Virus record (IMG/VR): IMGVR_UViG_2600254997_000025
Length of the DNA: 10,888 nucleotides
Direction: 5' to 3' (one strand)
DNA from: a virus
Taxonomy: Duplodnaviria > Heunggongvirae > Uroviricota > Caudoviricetes
Program-made: the position numbers and the translations under genes
Notes under the pieces: model-generated
Databases searched by the model: none
Seen by the model: only the letters and a program-made list of their open reading frames with translations
Told to the model about the DNA's origin: nothing
Shown here: one piece after another, positions 1,944-10,888 of the stretch
Layout of the letters: each line of letters begins with the position of its first letter
How positions within the stretch are numbered: the first letter of the stretch is position 1

Positions 1944-1956
1944 GCCAGTGTATGGG

Positions 1957-2989
1957 TCCACCACATATTGCAATTTTTATTCTCTTTTAAAATATATTCC
2001 ACGGGCGTCATTAGTGCGAGCGCCTTGTGGGGTCTTTTGCTGTTATACAGCACCAGATATTCCGCCAGCTTCTGGTTAAATAGCGCCAGATCTTCAAAGA
2101 GTAAAATCTCATTAAATTCAATAAACTGCTCTCTTAACGTCCGGTTAAACGTTCACAGATAGCGTTTCATTTTTTGGCGTGTAGGGATAGGTCCAGAGGT
2201 TGTTTGATAGCGGCTTTCCTGCAGCGTTTTTGTCGAAGTTTCCCAGGAACTCTTTTCCGTTATCTGTGATTATCTGGCTGATACCGACCGGGAACAACCG
2301 GGCTGCGCGGCTGAAGAAGTGATTGACGATATCACTGTTGAGTGACGGCACAGCCAGCGCCAGCGCGTAATTGCTGCATTCGTCGATCATGGTGATGACA
2401 TAGCGACGCAGTTCGCCCATTCTGAGCTCAATGGCGTCCATCCCAATGAGCTCACCTGTCTTTACCGGGCGGTAGTGCTTTGGCCTGCGGGGTTTGGCAG
2501 ACCGCTTTTGACAAGCAGTGCCTTCCCCCGCGATCCCAGACGCACAGGTATCATCCGCATTTTATCATGTGCGGCAGCGATCATTCTGCCGATGGTGGAA
2601 ACACTCGGACAGGCCAGATAGCGCTGTTCGCACCAGGGCTTCAGGCGAACAAAAATCTGCTCTTTACCGAGGTTCGGCAGCTCTGTCCTGAGGCGTCGAA
2701 TCTCTTTCAGCACATCGGGATGCCAGTGTTTTTTTCGTCGCACCAGAGGTGCCTTACTGTGCGGGATTAGCCCCTCAGGTCCTTCCTTGTTCAGTAACTG
2801 ACGCCACCAGTAAAGCGTGCGGCAGGACACGCCAAAGGCTTCAGAAGCTGCAGAAATACCGTGTTTATCCCAGAAGTGCAGAGCCTTCATTCTCATTGTT
2901 GCTATATCAGCCATCACTGAAAGCCTCAACGCATAATCGGCCGTTTGGTAGTACTTAGGATAGCCAACCATCAGATGCTGCATTTGCAT
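1957..2989 (-). pseudogene. Degraded DDE transposase (IS481-like), split over three frames
   Basis: Track ORF 2462-2989 has an N-terminal HTH-like region (GISAASEAFGVSCRTLYWWRQLL). ORF 2145-2441 has an rve-type core with ITDNGKEF. The start of ORF 1427-2053 has the transposase C-terminal signature [18 protein letters not shown]. The pieces are in different frames with gaps. Confidence 0.5.
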
Positions 2990-3035
2990 AGTGCAATCTC
3001 CCCTTACTTATCCGGAGGCAATTGCAATATCTCTG
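1957..3035 (-). mobile_element. IS remnant of about 1.08 kb inserted between vis and the immunity region; boundaries approximate
   Basis: ATATTGCAATT at 1966-1976 is an inverted copy of AATTGCAATAT at 3020-3030, a candidate terminal inverted-repeat core. Only 11 bp is shared, so the ends are not precisely defined. Confidence 0.4.
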
Positions 3036-3082
3036 TGAACTTACACAGCCAGAAAAAGGGAGTTTTTGCAGAGCGGGCATCA

Positions 3083-4635: not shown

Positions 4636-5132
4636 TTTACTGCCCGTCGTGTGGACATGTTGCTCACACCCGTCGCGCACATTTCATGGACGATGGCACC
4701 AAGATAATGATTGCACAGTGCCGGAATATTTATTGCTCTGCGACATTTGAAGCGAGTGAAAGCTTTTTCTCTGACTGTAAAGATTCAGGAATGGAATACA
4801 TTTCAGGCAAACAGAGATACCGCGATTCACTGACTTCTGCCTCCGGCAGTATGAAACGCCCGAAAAGAATGCTTGTTACCGGATATTGTTGTCGGAGATG
4901 TAAAGGCCTTGCACTGTCAAGAACATCGCGGCGTCTGTCTCAGGAAGTCACTGAACGTTTTTATGTGTGCACGGATCCGGGCTGTGGTCTGGTGTTTAAA
5001 ACGCTTCAGACCATCAACCGCTTCATTGTCCGCCCGGTCACGCCGGACGAACTGGCAGAAAGCCTGCATGAAAAACAGGAACTGCCGCCAGTACGGTTAA
5101 AAACACAATCATATTCGCTGCGTCTGGAATGA
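4632..5132 (+). CDS. delta: Delta-like late-gene transactivator with tandem Ogr-type zinc fingers, 166 aa
   Basis: Two Cys4 units: CPSCGHVAH...CRNIYC and CCRRCKG...CTDPGC. This is the duplicated Ogr-like architecture of P4 Delta, and the 166-aa length matches as recalled. Confidence 0.8.
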   Translation: MIYCPSCGHVAHTRRAHFMDDGTKIMIAQCRNIYCSATFEASESFFSDCKDSGMEYISGKQRYRDSLTSASGSMKRPKRMLVTGYCCRRCKGLALSRTSRRLSQEVTERFYVCTDPGCGLVFKTLQTINRFIVRPVTPDELAESLHEKQELPPVRLKTQSYSLRLE

Positions 5133-5205
5133 GGGCTGCCGGTTAACCCCGGCCGTCGCCGCACACCGTATTTTTATTCTTCAGCATGATGAGAAAGAGA
5201 TAACG

Positions 5206-5808
5206 ATGGAAAGCACAGCCTTACAGCAGGCCTTTGACACGTGTCAGAATAACAAAGCAGCATGGCTGCAACGCAAAAATGAGCTGGCTGCGGCCGAACA
5301 GGAATATCTGCGGCTTCTGTCAGGAGAAGGCAGAAACGTCAGTCGCCTTGACGAATTACGCAATATTATCGAAGTCAGAAAATGGCAGGTGAATCAGGCC
5401 GCCGGTCGTTATATTCGTTCGCATGAAGCCGTTCAGCACATCAGCATCCGCGACCGGCTGAATGATTTTATGCAGCAGCACGGCACAGCACTGGCGGCGG
5501 CACTGGCACCGGAGCTGATGGGCTACAGTGAGCTGACGGCCATTGCCCGAAACTGTGCCATACAGCGTGCCACAGATGCCCTGCGTGAAGCCCTCCTGTC
5601 CTGGCTTGCGAAGGGTGAAAAAATTAATTATTCCGCACAGGATAGCGACATTTTAACGACCATCGGATTCAGGCCTGACGCGGCTTCGGTGGATGACAGC
5701 CGTGAAAAATTCACCCCTGCGCAGAACATGATTTTTCGCGTAAAAGTGCGCAACTGGCATCACGTCAGTCTGTGTAAAATTCCCCGAAAATCCGCCTGTT
5801 TTTACTGA
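5206..5808 (+). CDS. psu: Psu-like polarity-suppression / capsid decoration protein, 200 aa
   Basis: Third gene of the late triplet, with AAAGAG upstream of the ATG. N-terminus MESTALQQAFDTCQNNKAAWLQRKNELAAAEQEY. The call rests on synteny plus recalled similarity. P4 Psu is recalled as about 190 aa, so the C-terminus may differ. Confidence 0.7.
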   Translation: MESTALQQAFDTCQNNKAAWLQRKNELAAAEQEYLRLLSGEGRNVSRLDELRNIIEVRKWQVNQAAGRYIRSHEAVQHISIRDRLNDFMQQHGTALAAALAPELMGYSELTAIARNCAIQRATDALREALLSWLAKGEKINYSAQDSDILTTIGFRPDAASVDDSREKFTPAQNMIFRVKVRNWHHVSLCKIPRKSACFY

Positions 5809-5810
5809 AA

Positions 5811-5841
5811 AAAGCCATGCATCGATAAGGTGCATGGCTTT
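5811..5841 (+). terminator. Hairpin immediately after psu stop, possible terminator of the late operon
   Basis: AGCCATGCA (5813-5821), 9-nt loop, TGCATGGCT (5831-5839): a perfect 9-bp stem flanked by an A run before and TT after. The T tract is short, so intrinsic termination is uncertain. Confidence 0.4.
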
Positions 5842-5916
5842 GCATGCGTTTCCCTGCCTCATTTTCTGCAGACCGCGCCATTCCCGGCGCGGTCTGAGCG
5901 TGTCAGTGCAACTGCA

Positions 5917-5944
5917 TTAAAACCGCCCCGCAAAGCGGGCGGGC
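5917..5944 (-). terminator. Candidate intrinsic terminator for the minus-strand cargo operon
   Basis: On the minus strand GCCCGCCCGC, loop TTT, GCGGGGCGG form a GC-rich stem (about 8 bp with one bulge) followed by TTTTAA. It lies about 35 nt downstream of the last cargo gene stop and is not followed by a T run on the plus strand. Confidence 0.4.
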
Positions 5945-5960
5945 GAGGCGGGGAGAGCAT
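5942..5960 (+). other. P2/P4-type cos site (cohesive-end 19-mer), uncleaved prophage form
   Basis: GGCGAGGCGGGGAGAGCAT matches 17 of 19 positions of the P2/P4 cohesive end GGCGAGGCGGGGAAAGCAC as recalled from memory. It sits directly after psu, as in P4. Confidence 0.6.
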
Positions 5961-5978
5961 TGCGCGCAGGTAAAAAAA

Positions 5979-6668
5979 TCATTTATTTTGTAATGCCGCA
6001 TCAAATCTGGTCTTGAGATCTTGGAATGGGATAACGAGTTTATCGATATAATCTTTATTATTATTTTGTAGAATTGCTTCAACAAAATCATTTAGAGGTG
6101 CATAGTTTTCTAATACTTTAGAATCGATAAAATCTTTATAGGACATACATTCAGCACCAATGCTAAGGCTTTCACCTATATACTTTTGTTCAAGAGATCT
6201 AATACAAGGAAAACCAATATCGTTCTCTCGTAGGGCTATAGAAATATTTTTGATTAATTCAGTTATTAACATTTCATCATTAGTTGGTGAAAATACAGAT
6301 GAATCTCTATTTTTCCTGAATTGATGTACCCAGCAAAAATATTGGCATAGATAGAATCTTGTACTATCAATATAATATTGATCCGACGATAGGTCATTGT
6401 GATCTTTAATATAACATAGCCTTCCTAAAAAACCATTTGCAGCACTAAGTAATGTTAACCCCCAACGTCCGATTTCAAGATCTCTTGCTTTTTTAAAATT
6501 ATAAGCACGTTCATCCTCTTTAATTCTCTGTTCACTTTCATATTTCAACTTATTTTTAAATGATTCTAACTCTCTTTTATCAATATGTTGTAAAAAAGCC
6601 TTACAAACAAATCCAATAATTGCAAATGAAATGCTTGATGACAAAATACCTTCCCAAAAGCTACTCAT
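5979..6668 (-). CDS. Small protein, 229 aa, with one predicted N-terminal transmembrane helix; third gene of the RT cassette (possible DRT1 partner / effector)
   Basis: ORF in track. Hydrophobic N-terminus FWEGILSSSISFAIIGFVCKAFL. The ATG (6668-6666) overlaps the TGA (6667-6665) of the nitrilase ORF, indicating translational coupling. AT-rich codon usage like the rest of the cassette. Confidence 0.65.
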   Translation of the reverse strand: MSSFWEGILSSSISFAIIGFVCKAFLQHIDKRELESFKNKLKYESEQRIKEDERAYNFKKARDLEIGRWGLTLLSAANGFLGRLCYIKDHNDLSSDQYYIDSTRFYLCQYFCWVHQFRKNRDSSVFSPTNDEMLITELIKNISIALRENDIGFPCIRSLEQKYIGESLSIGAECMSYKDFIDSKVLENYAPLNDFVEAILQNNNKDYIDKLVIPFQDLKTRFDAALQNK

Positions 6669-8512
6669 TTCTCACCTCGCTCTAATAGAGCATTATAGTC
6701 AAACCCTGGAGGATTGTGTTTAATAGTATCGGAGTTAATTCTGAATGAACGATATTGAGCCTCTCTCAATGCATATATATTTAAAGTAGTAGTTAGGATG
6801 CAATTGTTTTCCCCACCTTTTATATATATCTTATTTGAAATAGTGCTACTGGTCGGTTGTAGAACACAAGAACCGCCATAATGCGAAGTATTTGATTGAG
6901 CCACATAACAATGTAAATCCCGTGTCGCTGACTCAGTGATATGTTGATAATAATTTATATCTTGATTCCATACGCAAGCAAATAAAATATCCAACTGCGA
7001 ACGAAATAATGCTCTATGCTCGATATTAGCCAGTTCAAAACAGTTGTATGTAGAAAATGATACGTTTTTCCACTTAATCAAATGATACCGTTGTTTACTA
7101 GGTTTAGGAGAGGATATTTTTAACCTTAAAGAATTCAGCATCGTAATCTCACTAGGTGCGTAATGATTTTTCACTCGAAAAACTAACATACTGGATTTGT
7201 GTTTAAAGTTTGAAGTATAAGGCAGCATTTCAACCAAAATATTATATGCGCGTTCGTTAATAACCCAATGCTCTAATCCGAAAATCAAAGATATTTGTTT
7301 TCTCCTTGAATGTGCTGCCATAAAAGGTAACCACGACACAGGAATTGATAACTCAGGGAGTAGTAATATCTGCACATTTTCTTCAGTTGCCGAGTTGAGA
7401 ATACGATAAAGGTTTCTTTGCCGTTCATAACTTAAATTTGGAGACTGATCTTTTCTGCAAGCACTTTCAATATTACGACGTTCAACTCTCATATTTGCCA
7501 ACGCAACTTTTATTGTGTCATTACCACTTCTATCATCAATTCCTACCTTTATTTCAAGAGCTTTATTATCTTTTATCTTAGTAACAGAGCAATTTTTTAA
7601 GTGATGCTTATTTTCATGCGTAAACTTATGTAGTTTTCTTGTATGAAGAGCATCAATCAAATCGAAAAGCTGCTTTTCATCAGCATGAATATATCTAGGG
7701 GTTTTATTTAATTTATCATTATCAAGTGGAATACCATGCATCTTACTGTATAAATTCTCCTCAGTAAGATCTCCTTTATATTTAGTATAGTTAGCTAAAG
7801 GCCAAGACACTAGATTATGACGAATCAAATTACTGCTTCTAAATCTTTCAATTAGAACAGACATTCCATCGGACTGTTTAATTAAAGATTTCAAACCTTC
7901 CAAAGCTCTATTTTGTGGCTCTTTATCACCTAAAATGACATTTAAATCTAACAAAGCCAAATTCAAACAAAGAGAAATATCAATGTATTTCTGCATTCCA
8001 TTTTTAAGTTTTGGAGATATAACACTATCACCTTCCTTCCACTTCATTTTATTAATTGATTCTTTAATTTGTTTGTAAAAGGCGATTGAAAATCCATATT
8101 TTCTTGTAATTAATGTATACGATAGAACTTTCTCCCATAACCGACTGAACCTTAGAGAATTTTCACCTTTAAAAAACAGCGTTATTTGCTTTAAGGTATT
8201 CTCATTCGATGGAAGATTGCAAAGCCTATGAGCTAAGATATGTGATGATATATATTTTGATAATTCAGTTTCATTCTCTGCCAAACCTACAATACTTCTA
8301 AATTTATTTGCCGAACCATCAAGTAATATATCATAAGCAAATTTATCGAGATCGCTAGATATATGTTCTTCCGGTAAAAAACGAAATGCACTGCTTCTGT
8401 TCTCAATTTCTTGTTTGAAGACTTGTAAACCAGCCAAACTATGATCTTTATTGAAATAATGAAAAATCAATTTATCCTTTTGAATTGGTAATTCATGATA
8501 ACTCTCGGTCAA
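6665..8512 (-). CDS. Nitrilase (C-N hydrolase) domain protein; probably the C-terminal part of an RT-nitrilase fusion (annotated start is TTG)
   Basis: Nitrilase-superfamily catalytic triad context: Glu in ILLLPELS, Lys in LVFRVKNHYAPSE, Cys in TYNCFELANIEHR, plus HYGGSCVLQP. The frame is open 30 codons upstream of the TTG, back to the slippery heptamer in the RT gene. The first in-frame ATG is only at about codon 155. Confidence 0.8.
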   Translation of the reverse strand: MTESYHELPIQKDKLIFHYFNKDHSLAGLQVFKQEIENRSSAFRFLPEEHISSDLDKFAYDILLDGSANKFRSIVGLAENETELSKYISSHILAHRLCNLPSNENTLKQITLFFKGENSLRFSRLWEKVLSYTLITRKYGFSIAFYKQIKESINKMKWKEGDSVISPKLKNGMQKYIDISLCLNLALLDLNVILGDKEPQNRALEGLKSLIKQSDGMSVLIERFRSSNLIRHNLVSWPLANYTKYKGDLTEENLYSKMHGIPLDNDKLNKTPRYIHADEKQLFDLIDALHTRKLHKFTHENKHHLKNCSVTKIKDNKALEIKVGIDDRSGNDTIKVALANMRVERRNIESACRKDQSPNLSYERQRNLYRILNSATEENVQILLLPELSIPVSWLPFMAAHSRRKQISLIFGLEHWVINERAYNILVEMLPYTSNFKHKSSMLVFRVKNHYAPSEITMLNSLRLKISSPKPSKQRYHLIKWKNVSFSTYNCFELANIEHRALFRSQLDILFACVWNQDINYYQHITESATRDLHCYVAQSNTSHYGGSCVLQPTSSTISNKIYIKGGENNCILTTTLNIYALREAQYRSFRINSDTIKHNPPGFDYNALLERGEK

Positions 8513-8580
8513 CGTAAAGCCTTTCTCATCATTCGCTGCCTGTTTGATGAATCCATTAAGGGTTCGCTCTATGAATTTTA

Positions 8581-9540
8581 TTACTTCTTCACCTTTATCT
8601 TCTTTTTTAATGTCCGGGGATGAAAAACTAAAAGAATATCATCCACATAGCGACCGTAGTACGATGGATTAATTTTTGATTTAATATCTTTATCAAAACC
8701 CATTAAATACCAATTAGATAATATGGCAGAAGAAGTAAATCCAATTGGAATGCCTTTTGATGAAGGAGTTGAATGTGTCACACCAATATATGGAGATATT
8801 TTCTCTCTGTATTTTTGATGCATCAACCTCAATTTACTATTCAACAACATAGAAAGAGCTTTAATTTCTTCTAATTGTTCTTCGTCAATAATTCTATCAA
8901 TGGCATCAAAATCTATATCTATATTATAATAAAAACCCTTAAGATCCAGAGAAAGAATTGCAACATCATTTCGCTCTTTTTCTATAACTTCTATCGCTTT
9001 ATCGATACCACCATCTCGCCATTTATTATAATTATCAATGTATCTTTCAAAGATATTTTTTGAGGAGTTTTTTGGCGCATCGAAACTATTCTTAGAATAT
9101 TTTTTTATTACTTTTGATATTCTATTTCCATAAACCGAATCAGAAAACTTGTCATCTAGCATTGAACCAACAAAGATAGACCAGAGTGTTTCTATTAAAT
9201 ATATTTCAATAGGAGCAACGATCAAATAATTTACAGCACCTACTTTGTATTCATCTGATGTCTTATTATTACTTAAAAAAAGAGCTCCGCTCGTTTGCTC
9301 AATATCCAAATGGCTATCAATTATTTTTGGTAATAATTCAACATCAATTTTATTTAGCCACTCATTAAAGTTAATGTCATTATTATTTTCAAAAAAATCA
9401 ACCACTTTTTCTATTTTTTCGTCATAGAGAGAATCTTCAAATTGAGCGATTTCTTCCTTTAGGAAAAAATTTAAGTTTTCGTAGTAAGCATATGACTTAA
9501 GACAATTATATGCACTAACAACTATATCTTTTGTAATCAT
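8581..9540 (-). CDS. Reverse transcriptase (UG/Abi-type, defence-associated), 319 aa in this frame
   Basis: RT palm motifs: LSLDLKGFYYNIDIDF, GIPIGFTSSAILSNWYLMGFD (the GxPQG..S..L.N.YL-type motif) and YYGRYVDDILLVF (the YxDD catalytic motif). The ORF ends 6 codons after an A_AAA_AAG heptamer. Confidence 0.85.
   Translation of the reverse strand: MITKDIVVSAYNCLKSYAYYENLNFFLKEEIAQFEDSLYDEKIEKVVDFFENNNDINFNEWLNKIDVELLPKIIDSHLDIEQTSGALFLSNNKTSDEYKVGAVNYLIVAPIEIYLIETLWSIFVGSMLDDKFSDSVYGNRISKVIKKYSKNSFDAPKNSSKNIFERYIDNYNKWRDGGIDKAIEVIEKERNDVAILSLDLKGFYYNIDIDFDAIDRIIDEEQLEEIKALSMLLNSKLRLMHQKYREKISPYIGVTHSTPSSKGIPIGFTSSAILSNWYLMGFDKDIKSKINPSYYGRYVDDILLVFHPRTLKKKIKVKK
8602..8608 (-). other. A_AAA_AAG slippery heptamer at the RT/nitrilase frame junction
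   Basis: On the minus strand ACA TTA AAA AAG AAG reads A_AAA_AAG in the RT zero frame. A -1 shift here continues GAA GAT AAA GGT ... with no stop into the nitrilase ORF, exactly 30 codons to the TTG at 8512. Confidence 0.5.
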
Positions 9541-9631
9541 AACGCATCATTCCGTGTATAAGTCTGTTATAGATGAAAGTAAAACTGAAATTGATTAATA
9601 CCTAACAAAAACATACAGAAAAAATCAATTA

Positions 9632-10888
9632 TTAATATTTTTTTGCAAAATCAAATGGTGTTACGAAAGTCTCACGATTTGCTGATAGGAAATCCGCCCA
9701 CCATTGCATCATCAATCGACGTTCGTCCAAATGCTCTGAAGTATGGATATAAGCTGCACGAACATTATTGCGCTCCGAGTGGCTTAACTGACGTTCTATC
9801 GCATCATCACTCCAAAGCCCCGACTCCCCCAAAGCACCACCCGCCATTGTTCTAAAACCATGCCCACATACTTCCGTTTGTGTGTCGTAGCCCATAGTCC
9901 TGAGCGCATTATTAACTGTGTTTTCGCTCATAACTTTATTGGGATCATGATCACCGGGAAACAGTCTAGGATTATCTCCACTAAGCTTCTTCAACTCATC
10001 CAGCAAAGCTAGAGCCTGAGTGCTCAATGGAACAATATGTTCCTCTTTCATCTTCATCCCACGATAGGAGTAACGCACACCTTCGATTTCTTCACGCCGC
10101 GCCGGTATCCGCCAGCAGGCGTTATCAAAATCAAACTCATCCCATCGGGCAAATCGCATCTCACTAGAGCGAACGAAGGTAAGTAGAGATAACTCGACTG
10201 CAATACGCGTCATTTTGCGGCCACGATATGCCGCAAGGCGTGCCAGAAACTCAGGGAAACGGCTGGAAGGTAGAGCTGGATAGTGTCGTGCTTTAGTTGT
10301 CGATAACGCACCAGCCATATCGCTAGCCGGGTTCGAGTCGATATAATCGTTCTGTACGGCATACCGCATAATGGCCGTGACGCGCTGTTGCAGGCGCTGA
10401 GCGACGTCGTGTTTACCACTGACATCAACTTTTTTAATCGGGGCTAATAGGTGGCTAGTTTTGAGCTGGCGAATGTCGGACGAACCGATATGAGGGAAGA
10501 TATAAAGCTCAAGATAGCGAAGAACACGCGATCGATGGTCTTCACTCCAGCGCTTGTTACTGGCATGCCATTCGCGAGCAATGGTTTCGAAGGTATATAC
10601 CCCCGAATTCTCGGCCTGAGCTTCTTTCTGTTCGGCTTTTGGGTCAATGCCCTGCACTAACAGCTTTTTAGCTTCGTCGCGCTTTGCTCTTGCCTGAGCA
10701 AGCGTCACTGTAGGCCAAACACCAAAAGCGAGGCGATCCTCTTTTTTGTCAGAGGGGCGTCGGTATTTCATGCGCCAGTATTTAGAACCCTTGGCCGAAA
10801 CCTCGAGATACAAACCGCCGCCATCGGCCATTTTGTATGTTTTGTCTTTTGGCTTTGCGGTCTCGACCTGTCTGGCGTTGAGCTTCAT
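9632..10888 (-). CDS. int: P4-type tyrosine integrase (site-specific recombinase), 418 aa
   Basis: ORF in track. N-terminus MKLNARQVETAKPKDKTYKMADGGGLYLEV is typical of P4-family integrase arm-binding domains. C-terminal catalytic region with R (TFVRSSE), HGFR and the Tyr context VRAAYIHTSEH. The ATG sits at the last 3 bases of the window. Confidence 0.9.
   Translation of the reverse strand: MKLNARQVETAKPKDKTYKMADGGGLYLEVSAKGSKYWRMKYRRPSDKKEDRLAFGVWPTVTLAQARAKRDEAKKLLVQGIDPKAEQKEAQAENSGVYTFETIAREWHASNKRWSEDHRSRVLRYLELYIFPHIGSSDIRQLKTSHLLAPIKKVDVSGKHDVAQRLQQRVTAIMRYAVQNDYIDSNPASDMAGALSTTKARHYPALPSSRFPEFLARLAAYRGRKMTRIAVELSLLTFVRSSEMRFARWDEFDFDNACWRIPARREEIEGVRYSYRGMKMKEEHIVPLSTQALALLDELKKLSGDNPRLFPGDHDPNKVMSENTVNNALRTMGYDTQTEVCGHGFRTMAGGALGESGLWSDDAIERQLSHSERNNVRAAYIHTSEHLDERRLMMQWWADFLSANRETFVTPFDFAKKY

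What the first reader, a model, noticed from the sequence alone, without database searches (positions are those of the whole stretch)
5979..6668. Third cassette gene encodes a small N-terminally membrane-anchored protein, translationally coupled to the nitrilase ORF
The 229-aa product has one hydrophobic helix at residues about 4-26 followed by a charged, Lys/Glu-rich soluble region with no motif I recognise. Its ATG overlaps the upstream stop (ATGA), implying stoichiometric co-expression. Small membrane proteins beside defence enzymes often act as abortive-infection effectors or anchors. The DRT1 system I recall also has a small second gene.
Basis: partly seen in the sequence, partly recalled or inferred. 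Interest (0 to 1): 0.5.

Follow-up and report, generated by a model that had tools for sequence, protein, structure and literature searches.

The report
Membrane partner of RT-nitrilase defence system
This gene encodes the small membrane-anchored partner of a published reverse-transcriptase–nitrilase anti-phage system carried by P4-like satellites of E. coli, so it is real but already known, and only how it works is still open.

Summary
The ORF is real: minus strand, 5979..6668, 229 aa. It has one N-terminal hydrophobic helix, and its ATG overlaps the upstream stop (ATGA).

It is not new. The protein is identical to WP_000094232.1 and to "protein 2" of plasmid pFR76, the "RT-nitrilase + 1TM" system of E. 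coli E101. Rousset et al. 2022 cloned that system from the psu–int hotspot of a P4-like satellite and showed it defends at room temperature. PADLOC calls the protein RTasTM (E = 5e-164).

It is the second gene of the operon, not the third. The "RT" and "nitrilase" ORFs are one 958-aa UG5-large gene, split here by a 1-nt loss in a T run. All four indels in the window fall in homopolymers, so sequencing error is likely.

Predicted topology is N-out/C-in, with an all-helical cytoplasmic domain that matches no solved fold specifically. The partner enzyme ("DRT5L") makes protein-primed DNA in vitro (Neville 2026). The role of the membrane protein is untested.

New here: the cytoplasmic domain belongs to an unnamed family. 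Relatives also sit beside SIR2+STAND genes and Lamassu-like SMC ATPase genes.

Most likely it is an accessory membrane-tethered partner or effector. Interest is low.

The parts
5979..6668 (-). Gene for the 229-aa RT-associated membrane protein (RTasTM, WP_000094232.1). It is the second gene of the two-gene UG5-large 'RT-nitrilase + 1TM' operon.
   Evidence: ORF list. PADLOC RTasTM PDLC03013 E = 5e-164, residues 1-229 of 229. Identical to protein 2 of pFR76 in Rousset 2022 Table S2A. Annotated WP_000094232.1 in E. coli genomes.
6591..6659 (-). Codons for residues 4-26, the single N-terminal transmembrane helix. Lys23, invariant in the close family, marks its cytoplasmic end.
   Evidence: Kyte-Doolittle 19-residue maximum of 1.94 at residues 8-26, the only segment above 1.6. 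AlphaFold helix 12-28. 64 of 71 family proteins have exactly one such N-terminal segment. 37 of 39 representatives have more K+R on the C-terminal flank.
6477..6587 (-). Codons for residues 28-64, a highly charged helical stalk. Its length varies greatly among distant relatives.
   Evidence: AlphaFold predicts one continuous helix over residues 31-89. In alignment A2 this region carries insertions of up to about 90 residues in relatives.
6120..6476 (-). Codons for residues 65-183, the conserved core of the cytoplasmic helical domain. Motifs: E-x-G-R-W...TLLS..NG..GRL, ST..Y..QY..W, IRSLEQ.YIG and C..Y..F.
   Evidence: Invariant columns in A1 and A2. hhalign against actinobacterial relatives gives probability 97.2% over columns 16-183. 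pLDDT is mostly 83-97.
6665..6668 (-). ATGA start/stop overlap between the RT-nitrilase gene and the membrane-protein gene.
   Evidence: Sequence. A 4-nt overlap also occurs in Morganella and Pectobacterium, and an 8-nt overlap in Pantoea.
6672..6678 (-). Shine-Dalgarno-like GAGGTGA inside the 3' end of the nitrilase coding sequence.
   Evidence: Read directly from the sequence. A comparable GGGGTGG is present in Morganella.
6665..9540 (-). UG5-large RT-nitrilase gene (958 aa when intact; the 'DRT5L' enzyme). Here it is read as two ORFs, 8581..9540 (RT) and 6665..8512 (nitrilase).
   Evidence: PADLOC RT_UG5-nitrilase: profile positions 1-316 and 344-958 of 958. Annotated as an intact 958-aa gene in nine E. 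coli genomes. The start of the sequence listed as DRT5L in the Neville 2026 supplement matches this gene's N-terminus.
8623..8627 (-). T5 homopolymer where intact alleles have T6. This 1-nt loss splits the RT-nitrilase gene.
   Evidence: Alignment with E. coli M19 and Res13. The read-through frame restores ...DDILLVFSSPDIKKED..., as in E101.
5923..5942 (-). Terminator-like GC hairpin followed by a T run, 37 nt downstream of the stop codon. It lies between the convergent psu gene and the membrane-protein gene.
   Evidence: scan_promoters_terminators found one site. Shuffles give 1.8 on average, so this is weak evidence.
5206..5808 (+). psu (polarity suppression protein) of the P4-like satellite, one border of the defence hotspot.
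   Evidence: Pfam Psu E = 4e-86; annotation. A 1-nt homopolymer difference at 5731 alters its C-terminus.
9632..10888 (-). P4-type tyrosine integrase, the other border of the hotspot. It sits next to tRNA-Leu in related genomes.
   Evidence: Pfam Arm-DNA-bind_3, Phage_int_M and Phage_integrase; annotation of M19.

Best explanation
**What it is (near certain).** This is the membrane-protein gene of the two-gene UG5-large 'RT-nitrilase + 1TM' anti-phage system. The system sits in the psu-int hotspot of a P4-like satellite.

**Shown or directly computed**
- The protein is identical to the one in the experimentally validated E. coli E101 construct.
- It has one N-terminal hydrophobic helix.
- It always lies immediately downstream of the RT-nitrilase gene and overlaps it.

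**Inferred**
- The helix spans the inner membrane with only about 3-6 residues outside. The remaining roughly 200 residues are in the cytoplasm.
- The cytoplasmic part is a charged helical stalk followed by a conserved helical bundle.

**Proposed mechanism (inference).** The cytoplasmic bundle binds the RT-nitrilase. In relatives that enzyme makes protein-primed DNA adducts, forms dormant filaments and kills through its nitrilase domain. The membrane protein would tether or couple the enzyme to the membrane. It would act as an accessory subunit that tunes or transmits activation. It would not be a self-sufficient toxin, and it would not be the only effector.

**Status of this copy.** If the frameshift in the RT-nitrilase gene is real, the system in this copy is inactive.
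For: **Identity**
- 100% identical to pFR76 protein 2.
- PADLOC RTasTM E = 5e-164, with RT_UG5-nitrilase upstream.
- psu and int flank the cassette.

**Defence activity**
- Rousset 2022 (PMC9122126) cloned both genes with the native promoter and saw defence at room temperature.

**Topology**
- Hydropathy identifies a single N-terminal segment.
- Family-wide, there is one N-terminal segment in 64 of 71 proteins.
- There is more K+R on the C-terminal flank in 37 of 39 representatives, and the median N-terminal tail is 7 residues.

**Fold**
- AlphaFold mean pLDDT is 86.6, and the model is all-helical.

**Linkage to the RT-nitrilase**
- The gene lies directly downstream of a 957-968-aa RVT_1 gene with a 4-8-nt overlap in Pantoea, Pectobacterium and Morganella.
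- dN/dS is about 0.05.

**Accessory rather than sole effector**
- DRT11, a UG5-large system without a TM gene, defends and needs its nitrilase (PMC13436386).
- DRT1 defends without DRT1b (PMC13275509).
- Relatives of this protein sit beside other enzymes that bring their own effector, such as SIR2.
- The gene is intact and unchanged in E. coli genomes whose RT-nitrilase is broken. The protein alone is therefore tolerated.

**Partner biochemistry**
- The sequence listed as DRT5L in Neville 2026 starts like this RT-nitrilase (only the first part was compared, and the held text carries small transcription differences). DRT5L made covalent DNA adducts without a template.
Against: - No experiment on this protein alone appears in the passages I read (keyword look-ups). 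Its necessity is asserted by Mestre 2022, citing Rousset 2022, where I found no deletion.
- No physical contact with the RT-nitrilase was modelled or measured.
- The transmembrane segment is strongly conserved (S10-S12, A16, G19, C22, K23). A passive anchor would not need that, so helix-helix packing or pore formation is possible.
- Gao 2020 reportedly found that deleting the TM gene of a DRT1 compromised defence (as cited in PMC13436386). That fits an essential effector equally well.
- The hydropathy methods used here are simple. No dedicated topology predictor was available.
Confidence: 0.5

Rival explanations
1. The membrane protein is the cell-killing effector. Its helices assemble into a pore or channel that is held shut by the RT-nitrilase or its DNA adduct, and that opens on infection. 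This is a Hailong-like arrangement, as Neville 2026 suggested for drt1b.
For: - Rousset 2022 calls it a 'transmembrane effector'.
- Neville 2026 raises the Hailong analogy for drt1b.
- The TM segment is highly conserved, with small residues and an invariant Cys-Lys.
- The family is swapped between unrelated defence systems, as effector modules often are.
Against: - There is only one TM helix.
- The stalk between membrane and conserved domain varies from about 35 to over 100 residues.
- The partner enzymes already carry effectors: nitrilase, which is required in DRT1 and DRT11, and SIR2.
- UG5-large and DRT1 systems without a TM gene still defend.
- The domain is slightly acidic overall (K+R 30, D+E 33), which is not typical of a DNA binder.
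- No fold match to known pore formers stands above generic helical bundles.
Confidence: 0.27
2. The protein is a negative regulator. It sequesters the RT-nitrilase at the membrane and keeps it inactive until infection, acting like an antitoxin.
For: - Tight translational linkage is typical of toxin-antitoxin-like pairs.
- The RT-nitrilase has been inactivated independently at least seven times among E. coli genomes. This suggests the enzyme is costly.
Against: - Related RT-nitrilases keep themselves dormant through their own DNA adducts and filaments (Neville 2026).
- They are carried without any TM gene in most loci: 31 of 299 UG5-large and about 18% of drt1 have one.
- The bias in gene loss is not significant once gene length is considered. 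About 1.7 hits are expected on the small gene and 0 were seen, P about 0.18 (my calculation).
Confidence: 0.1
3. The hydrophobic N-terminus is a cleaved signal peptide or lipoprotein signal, so the protein is exported. Alternatively, the ORF is a hitch-hiking gene unrelated to the RT-nitrilase.
For: The hydrophobic segment is at the extreme N-terminus, and a Cys follows it.
Against: - The segment before the helix has no positive charge (MSSFWE, net -1).
- Basic residues cluster after the helix. This holds across the family.
- GFVC does not fit a lipobox, which needs G/A/S at position -1 (established consensus; read from the sequence).
- Phobius called 1 TM in Rousset 2022.
- Synteny with the RT-nitrilase is conserved in all five loci examined, with overlapping codons.
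Confidence: 0.03

Closest known systems
'RT-nitrilase + 1TM' system of E. coli E101 (plasmid pFR76; Rousset et al. 2022, PMC9122126). Also called UG5-large with TM cluster 1858 (Mestre 2022), and RT_UG5-nitrilase + RTasTM in PADLOC. From memory, DefenseFinder lists it as Rst_RT-nitrilase-Tm.
   Same: The membrane protein is identical residue for residue. The gene order is the same, as are the psu-int hotspot of a P4-like satellite and the upstream intergenic sequence.
   Different: In this window the RT-nitrilase reading frame is broken by a 1-nt homopolymer loss. It also carries a K-to-I change at residue 73. In addition, two nucleotide differences from E. coli Res13 in the nitrilase part change residues (V569I and H574N), but the stored E101 sequence is cut before that region, so they could not be checked against E101.
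DRT type 1 (UG1 RT-nitrilase, Drt1a) with its optional membrane protein Drt1b
   Same: The architecture is the same: an RT fused to a C-terminal nitrilase, followed in a minority of loci by a small membrane-protein gene. [quoted passage not shown]
   Different: The RT here is UG5, not UG1. This protein matched no PADLOC model other than RTasTM, and Mestre 2022 places the TM proteins in separate clusters (85 and 1858). Homology to Drt1b could not be tested, because no Drt1b sequence was at hand.
DRT11 of Sinorhizobium meliloti (UG5-large without a TM gene; Sanchez-Nieto 2026, PMC13436386)
   Same: It belongs to the same RT-nitrilase family, and its behaviour resembles abortive infection.
   Different: It has no membrane partner. 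RT plus nitrilase suffice for defence, which shows the TM protein is not universally required in UG5-large.
Hailong (HalA membrane channel blocked by DNA made by HalB), as invoked by Neville 2026 for drt1b
   Same: A DNA-synthesising enzyme is paired with a membrane protein.
   Different: This is an analogy only. The protein here has one TM helix and a large cytoplasmic helical domain. No sequence or fold relation was found or tested.
SLATT-type accessory membrane proteins of RT and other defence systems (AbiA, UG17, UG23, DRT3, RADAR)
   Same: They are small membrane proteins exchanged between different defence systems, sometimes accessory and sometimes effector (Mestre 2022).
   Different: SLATT proteins have 2-3 TM helices. 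This family has one helix plus a distinct cytoplasmic domain, and it has no Pfam hit and no PADLOC match other than RTasTM.

Membership tests
RTasTM, the membrane component of UG5-large 'RT-nitrilase + 1TM' | Sequence match to the family profile or to the validated protein | tested here: met
   PADLOC PDLC03013 E = 5e-164 and PDLC03799 E = 1e-122, both covering residues 1-229. Identical to pFR76 protein 2.
RTasTM, the membrane component of UG5-large 'RT-nitrilase + 1TM' | Encoded directly downstream of a UG5-large RT-nitrilase on the same strand | tested here: met
   The upstream ORFs match RT_UG5-nitrilase over profile positions 1-316 and 344-958. The overlap is 4 nt. The upstream gene is frameshifted in this window.
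RTasTM, the membrane component of UG5-large 'RT-nitrilase + 1TM' | A single transmembrane helix | tested here: met
   One Kyte-Doolittle segment above 1.6, at residues 8-26. The same holds in 64 of 71 relatives. Phobius called 1 TM in Rousset 2022. It was not checked with a dedicated predictor or by experiment.
RTasTM, the membrane component of UG5-large 'RT-nitrilase + 1TM' | Location in the psu-int hotspot of a P4-like satellite (for the E. coli type) | tested here: met
   Psu, Ogr/Delta and integrase domains flank the cassette. M19 has the same layout next to tRNA-Leu.
RTasTM, the membrane component of UG5-large 'RT-nitrilase + 1TM' | Contributes to anti-phage defence | not testable with these tools
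   Only the two-gene construct was tested in Rousset 2022. I found no single-gene deletion in the passages read.
DRT type 1 (Drt1a + Drt1b) | The partner RT belongs to UG1/Drt1a | tested here: not met
   Drt1a models score 36-54 bits, against 1485 and 657 bits for RT_UG5-nitrilase.
DRT type 1 (Drt1a + Drt1b) | The membrane protein is homologous to Drt1b | tested here: inconclusive
   The PADLOC scan at E <= 0.01 returned only the two RTasTM models. I could not confirm that a Drt1b model is in that library, and I had no Drt1b sequence to compare.
SLATT pore-forming proteins | 2-3 TM helices and a SLATT domain | tested here: not met
   There is one hydrophobic segment. Neither Pfam (no hits) nor PADLOC (only RTasTM) gave a SLATT match.
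Sec- or lipoprotein-exported proteins | A positively charged n-region and a cleavage site or lipobox | tested here: not met
   The N-terminal flank MSSFWE carries no K or R. GFVC is not a lipobox. Basic residues follow the helix.

The most novel reading that the evidence does not exclude
The cytoplasmic domain of this protein defines an unnamed family with no Pfam entry and no solved structure. Members share one N-terminal TM helix, a variable charged stalk and a conserved helical core. At least three unrelated kinds of defence machinery have recruited the family:
- UG5 RT-nitrilases in Enterobacterales.
- SIR2 plus nSTAND1-WD40 NTPase operons in Actinomycetota (8 of 8 loci).
- Lamassu-like SMC ATPase operons in metagenomes (2 loci).

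It would then be a general, exchangeable membrane-tethered module of prokaryotic immunity, comparable in role to SLATT. The label 'RT-associated' would be too narrow.
Probability: 0.4. Interest if true: 0.5.

Novelty: already known. Interest (0 to 1): 0.2.

Why it matters
**For this window.** The gene and its system are published and experimentally validated. The finding mainly settles annotation. The cassette is a two-gene UG5-large 'RT-nitrilase + 1TM' system in a P4-like satellite hotspot. Its first gene is probably split only by a sequencing error.

**What is still open.** No study has shown what the membrane protein does. The recent mechanistic work on class 3 RT-nitrilases purified this very enzyme without its partner.

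The partner belongs to a wider family also found beside SIR2-STAND and Lamassu-like genes. If that holds, one experiment on the E. coli protein would inform several systems at once.

Tried and rejected
**Searches that gave nothing specific**
- Foldseek against PDB and BFVD gave nothing at E <= 0.001.
- The afdb50 library was not available.
- The sequence profile against PDB chains gave a best E of 0.036, to designed helical proteins.
- Pfam, NCBIfam and PHROGs gave no hit for the protein or for 36 relatives.

**Tool calls that failed**
- The search for related loci failed on two broad alignments for lack of a conserved stretch.
- The Mestre 2022 supplement is not held, so clusters 85 and 1858 could not be inspected.

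**Ideas considered and dropped**
- Preferential retention of the membrane gene when the RT-nitrilase decays: dropped as not significant once gene length is allowed for.
- Signal peptide or lipoprotein: rejected on charge distribution and the lack of a lipobox.
- A separate promoter for the gene: promoter-like sites were fewer than in shuffled sequence, 13 against 20.
- Neighbours of the 300-aa relatives were mostly without annotation, and only the SIR2-STAND and SMC partnerships recur.

Full report
**1. The observation**

The ORF at 5979..6668 is real, but it lies on the minus strand. It is 229 aa with an ATG start. Read on the minus strand, the junction is GAGGTGAGAA-ATGA-GT. The ATG overlaps the TGA stop of the upstream 615-aa ORF by 4 nt, and a Shine-Dalgarno-like GAGGTGA precedes it.

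Hydropathy shows one hydrophobic segment:
- The Kyte-Doolittle 19-residue maximum is 1.94, at residues 8-26.
- Only windows starting at residues 7 and 8 exceed 1.6.
- The best window anywhere else is 1.03.

The rest of the protein is charged (K+R 30, D+E 33). Pfam, NCBIfam and PHROGs return nothing.

The ORF is a gene under selection:
- 29 homologues were found in Enterobacterales.
- 49 alignment columns are invariant.
- Against the Morganella orthologue, pN is 0.14 and pS is a saturated 0.74, giving dN/dS of about 0.05.

**2. What it is**

PADLOC matches the protein end to end to RTasTM, the 'RT-associated transmembrane' model (PDLC03013, E = 5e-164). The two upstream ORFs match one 958-position model, RT_UG5-nitrilase, at positions 1-316 and 344-958.

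The flanking genes identify the setting:
- psu (Pfam Psu, E = 4e-86), an Ogr/Delta zinc-finger gene and a tyrosine integrase flank the cassette.
- In E. coli M19 the same block sits next to tRNA-Leu, together with other P4-like genes.

This is the psu-int defence hotspot of P4-like satellites described by Rousset et al. 2022 (PMC9122126).

Their Table S2A lists plasmid pFR76, 'RT-nitrilase + 1TM', from E. coli E101. Its protein 2 is identical to the window's protein, which I checked by string comparison. The cloned DNA starts at the same integrase 3' end. The two-gene construct, under its native promoter, gave phage resistance at room temperature.

Mestre et al. 2022 (PMC9226505) classify it as UG5-large plus TM cluster 1858. 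The gene is therefore already known.

**3. Two genes, not three**

Aligning the window with E. coli M19 and Res13 shows that the window lacks one base in a T run (T5 at 8623-8627 on the minus strand; intact alleles have T6). Reading through restores ...YVDDILLVFSSPDIKKEDKGEEVIKF..., as in E101.

All four indels between the window and M19 are single-base changes in homopolymers, at 1828, 3741, 5731 and 8622. The one at 5731 also changes the Psu C-terminus. This pattern points to homopolymer sequencing error, although a real mutation is not excluded.

The gene is annotated as an intact 958-aa gene in Res13, EC9952, JNE132847, 2022H047, B27, E8, 3359, L1_E925 and E2386.

**4. Linkage to the RT-nitrilase**

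In Pantoea, Pectobacterium and three Morganella loci the homologue lies directly after a 957-968-aa RVT_1 gene. In one Morganella locus that upstream gene is truncated. The overlap is 4 nt in Morganella and Pectobacterium and 8 nt in Pantoea. The start/stop overlap is thus conserved across four genera.

This supports coupled expression. It does not prove fixed stoichiometry.

**5. Shape and topology**

AlphaFold2 on a 20-sequence alignment gives mean pLDDT 86.6 and pTM 0.75. The model is all-helical:
- helices 3-10 and 12-28;
- one long helix over residues 31-89;
- a bundle of helices reaching residue 227.

Topology evidence comes from the family as a whole:
- 64 of 71 proteins of at least 180 aa have exactly one strong N-terminal hydrophobic segment. 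The exceptions include N-terminally truncated fragments.
- 37 of 39 cluster representatives have more K+R after the helix than before it.
- The tail before the helix has a median length of 7 residues.

By the positive-inside rule (established knowledge), this predicts N-out/C-in, with essentially nothing in the periplasm. A signal peptide or lipobox does not fit the sequence.

No specific fold relative was found:
- Foldseek against PDB and BFVD gave nothing.
- The PDB sequence profile search gave nothing below E = 0.036.

**6. What the partner enzyme does**

Neville et al. 2026 (PMC13275509) showed that DRT1 makes semi-random DNA by template-free, protein-primed synthesis. The adducts drive assembly of dormant filaments, and the nitrilase is needed for defence.

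They also purified 'DRT5L'. Its sequence in their supplement starts like this E. coli RT-nitrilase (MITKDIVVSAYN...). Only the first part was compared, and the held text has small transcription differences. DRT5L likewise made covalent DNA adducts. The membrane protein was not included.

On the membrane partner, the literature says:
- About 18% of drt1 genes have a neighbouring drt1b.
- DRT1 defends without it.
- drt1b might work like the Hailong channel.
- Sanchez-Nieto et al. 2026 (PMC13436386) showed that a UG5-large system without any TM gene (DRT11) defends and needs both RT and nitrilase.
- Mestre 2022 states that the TM protein is necessary in the E. coli system and cites Rousset 2022. 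I found no deletion experiment in the passages I read there.

A profile of the enterobacterial proteins, searched against 1.84 billion representatives, found 51 proteins at E <= 0.001. The longer relatives (240-340 aa) keep the same plan:
- one N-terminal helix;
- a charged stalk of very variable length;
- a conserved core with the motifs RW.NP.L, ST.Y.F.QYFCW, F.LQQR.IGE and C..Y..F.

PADLOC labels ten tested relatives RTasTM. Pfam has no family for any of 36 members.

Among 28 genome loci of the roughly 300-aa group, none has a detectable RT-nitrilase neighbour. Instead:
- Eight of eight actinobacterial loci have the order membrane protein, then SIR2-like protein (PF13289, E = 1e-24), then nSTAND1-WD40 NTPase.
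- hhalign links that group to the enterobacterial family with probability 97.2% and E = 3e-11 over 158 columns.
- Two metagenome contigs carry mid-distance members (PADLOC RTasTM, E = 6e-25 and 4e-22). Each is followed by an unannotated protein of about 570 aa and an SMC/Rad50-like ATPase that hits Lamassu LmuB (E = 6e-21).
- One locus lies beside a Gabija GajB gene.

The sample is small, and the contexts of most members were not seen.

**8. Mechanism**

Identity as the RTasTM component is near certain. For function, I favour an accessory, membrane-tethered partner of the RT-nitrilase (confidence about 0.5 for the whole statement). The reasons are:
- Related RT-nitrilases are self-sufficient and kill through the nitrilase.
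- In its other contexts the family sits beside enzymes with their own effectors.
- The stalk length varies widely.
- The gene is intact and unchanged in genomes where the RT-nitrilase is broken, so the protein alone is tolerated.

The main rival (about 0.27) is that it is the membrane-damaging effector, gated by the enzyme or its DNA adduct. Two observations fit that: the strong conservation of the TM segment, and the way the module is exchanged between systems.

A negative-regulator role (about 0.1) and export or hitch-hiking (about 0.03) are less likely.

**9. Decay of the RT-nitrilase**

Among 33 E. coli genomes with the locus, the RT-nitrilase has been hit independently several times:
- a nonsense mutation in the five mouse M strains;
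- different 1-nt frameshifts in JNE170426 and FORC_031;
- an ISEc60 insertion;
- IS1A insertions;
- two truncations.

The membrane gene is intact in all 31 genomes that have it. Given the fourfold difference in length, about 1.7 hits are expected on the small gene, so zero hits is unremarkable (P about 0.18).

**10. Verdict**

The feature is already known: a published, validated system with an identical protein. Interest is low (0.2).

The most novel reading still allowed is that this is a general membrane-tethered module shared by several defence systems (probability about 0.4).

Noticed in passing
window 8623-8627; also 5731, 3741 and 1828: Every indel between the window and E. coli M19 is a single-base length change in a homopolymer. 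Two of them break conserved genes: the RT-nitrilase at 8623-8627 and the psu C-terminus at 5731. This looks like homopolymer sequencing error, so ORF calls in this window should be treated with care.
   Followed up: yes
window 6665-9540 and E. coli loci L001, L002, L008, L018; hits H38, H39, H56-H58: The RT-nitrilase gene has been inactivated independently at least seven times among 33 E. coli genomes. The events are a nonsense mutation, two different frameshifts, ISEc60 and IS1A insertions, and two truncations. The downstream membrane gene stays intact in all 31 genomes that carry it. The bias is not significant once gene length is allowed for.
   Followed up: partly
window 1949-3046: An insertion of about 1.1 kb, absent from E. 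coli M19, is flanked by a GCCAG duplication. It is 99.4% identical to elements annotated as IS481-family transposase. In the window its transposase reads as three separate minus-strand ORFs.
   Followed up: partly
L039-L046 (Actinomycetota genome contigs), around 4900-10400 in each locus: A conserved three-gene arrangement: a relative of this membrane protein, then a SIR2-like protein of about 330 aa, then an nSTAND1-WD40 NTPase of 1200-1330 aa. It is present in 8 of 8 loci. No RT or nitrilase is nearby.
   Followed up: partly
L047 223-5827 and L048 443-4342 (metagenome contigs): Mid-distance family members that PADLOC calls RTasTM are followed by an unannotated protein of about 570 aa and an SMC/Rad50-like ATPase that hits Lamassu LmuB. 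This suggests a Lamassu-like operon with a membrane component.
   Followed up: partly
L022 430-3420: A relative of about 300 aa lies directly downstream of a Gabija GajB helicase gene (PADLOC E = 7e-243). This points to a defence-island setting.
   Followed up: no
L011 4979-6004 (Morganella, GCA_051206315.1): In this genome the gene upstream of the membrane-protein homologue is called as only 341 aa, against 968 aa in two sister loci. It may be another case of a broken RT-nitrilase.
   Followed up: no
window 5923-5942: A single GC-rich hairpin with T/A runs on both sides sits between the convergent psu and membrane-protein genes. It could terminate both transcripts. One such site is no more than shuffled sequence gives.
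   Followed up: no
literature: PMC9226505 versus PMC9122126: [quoted passage not shown] The Rousset passages I read describe only the two-gene construct and no deletion. The requirement appears to be untested.
   Followed up: partly
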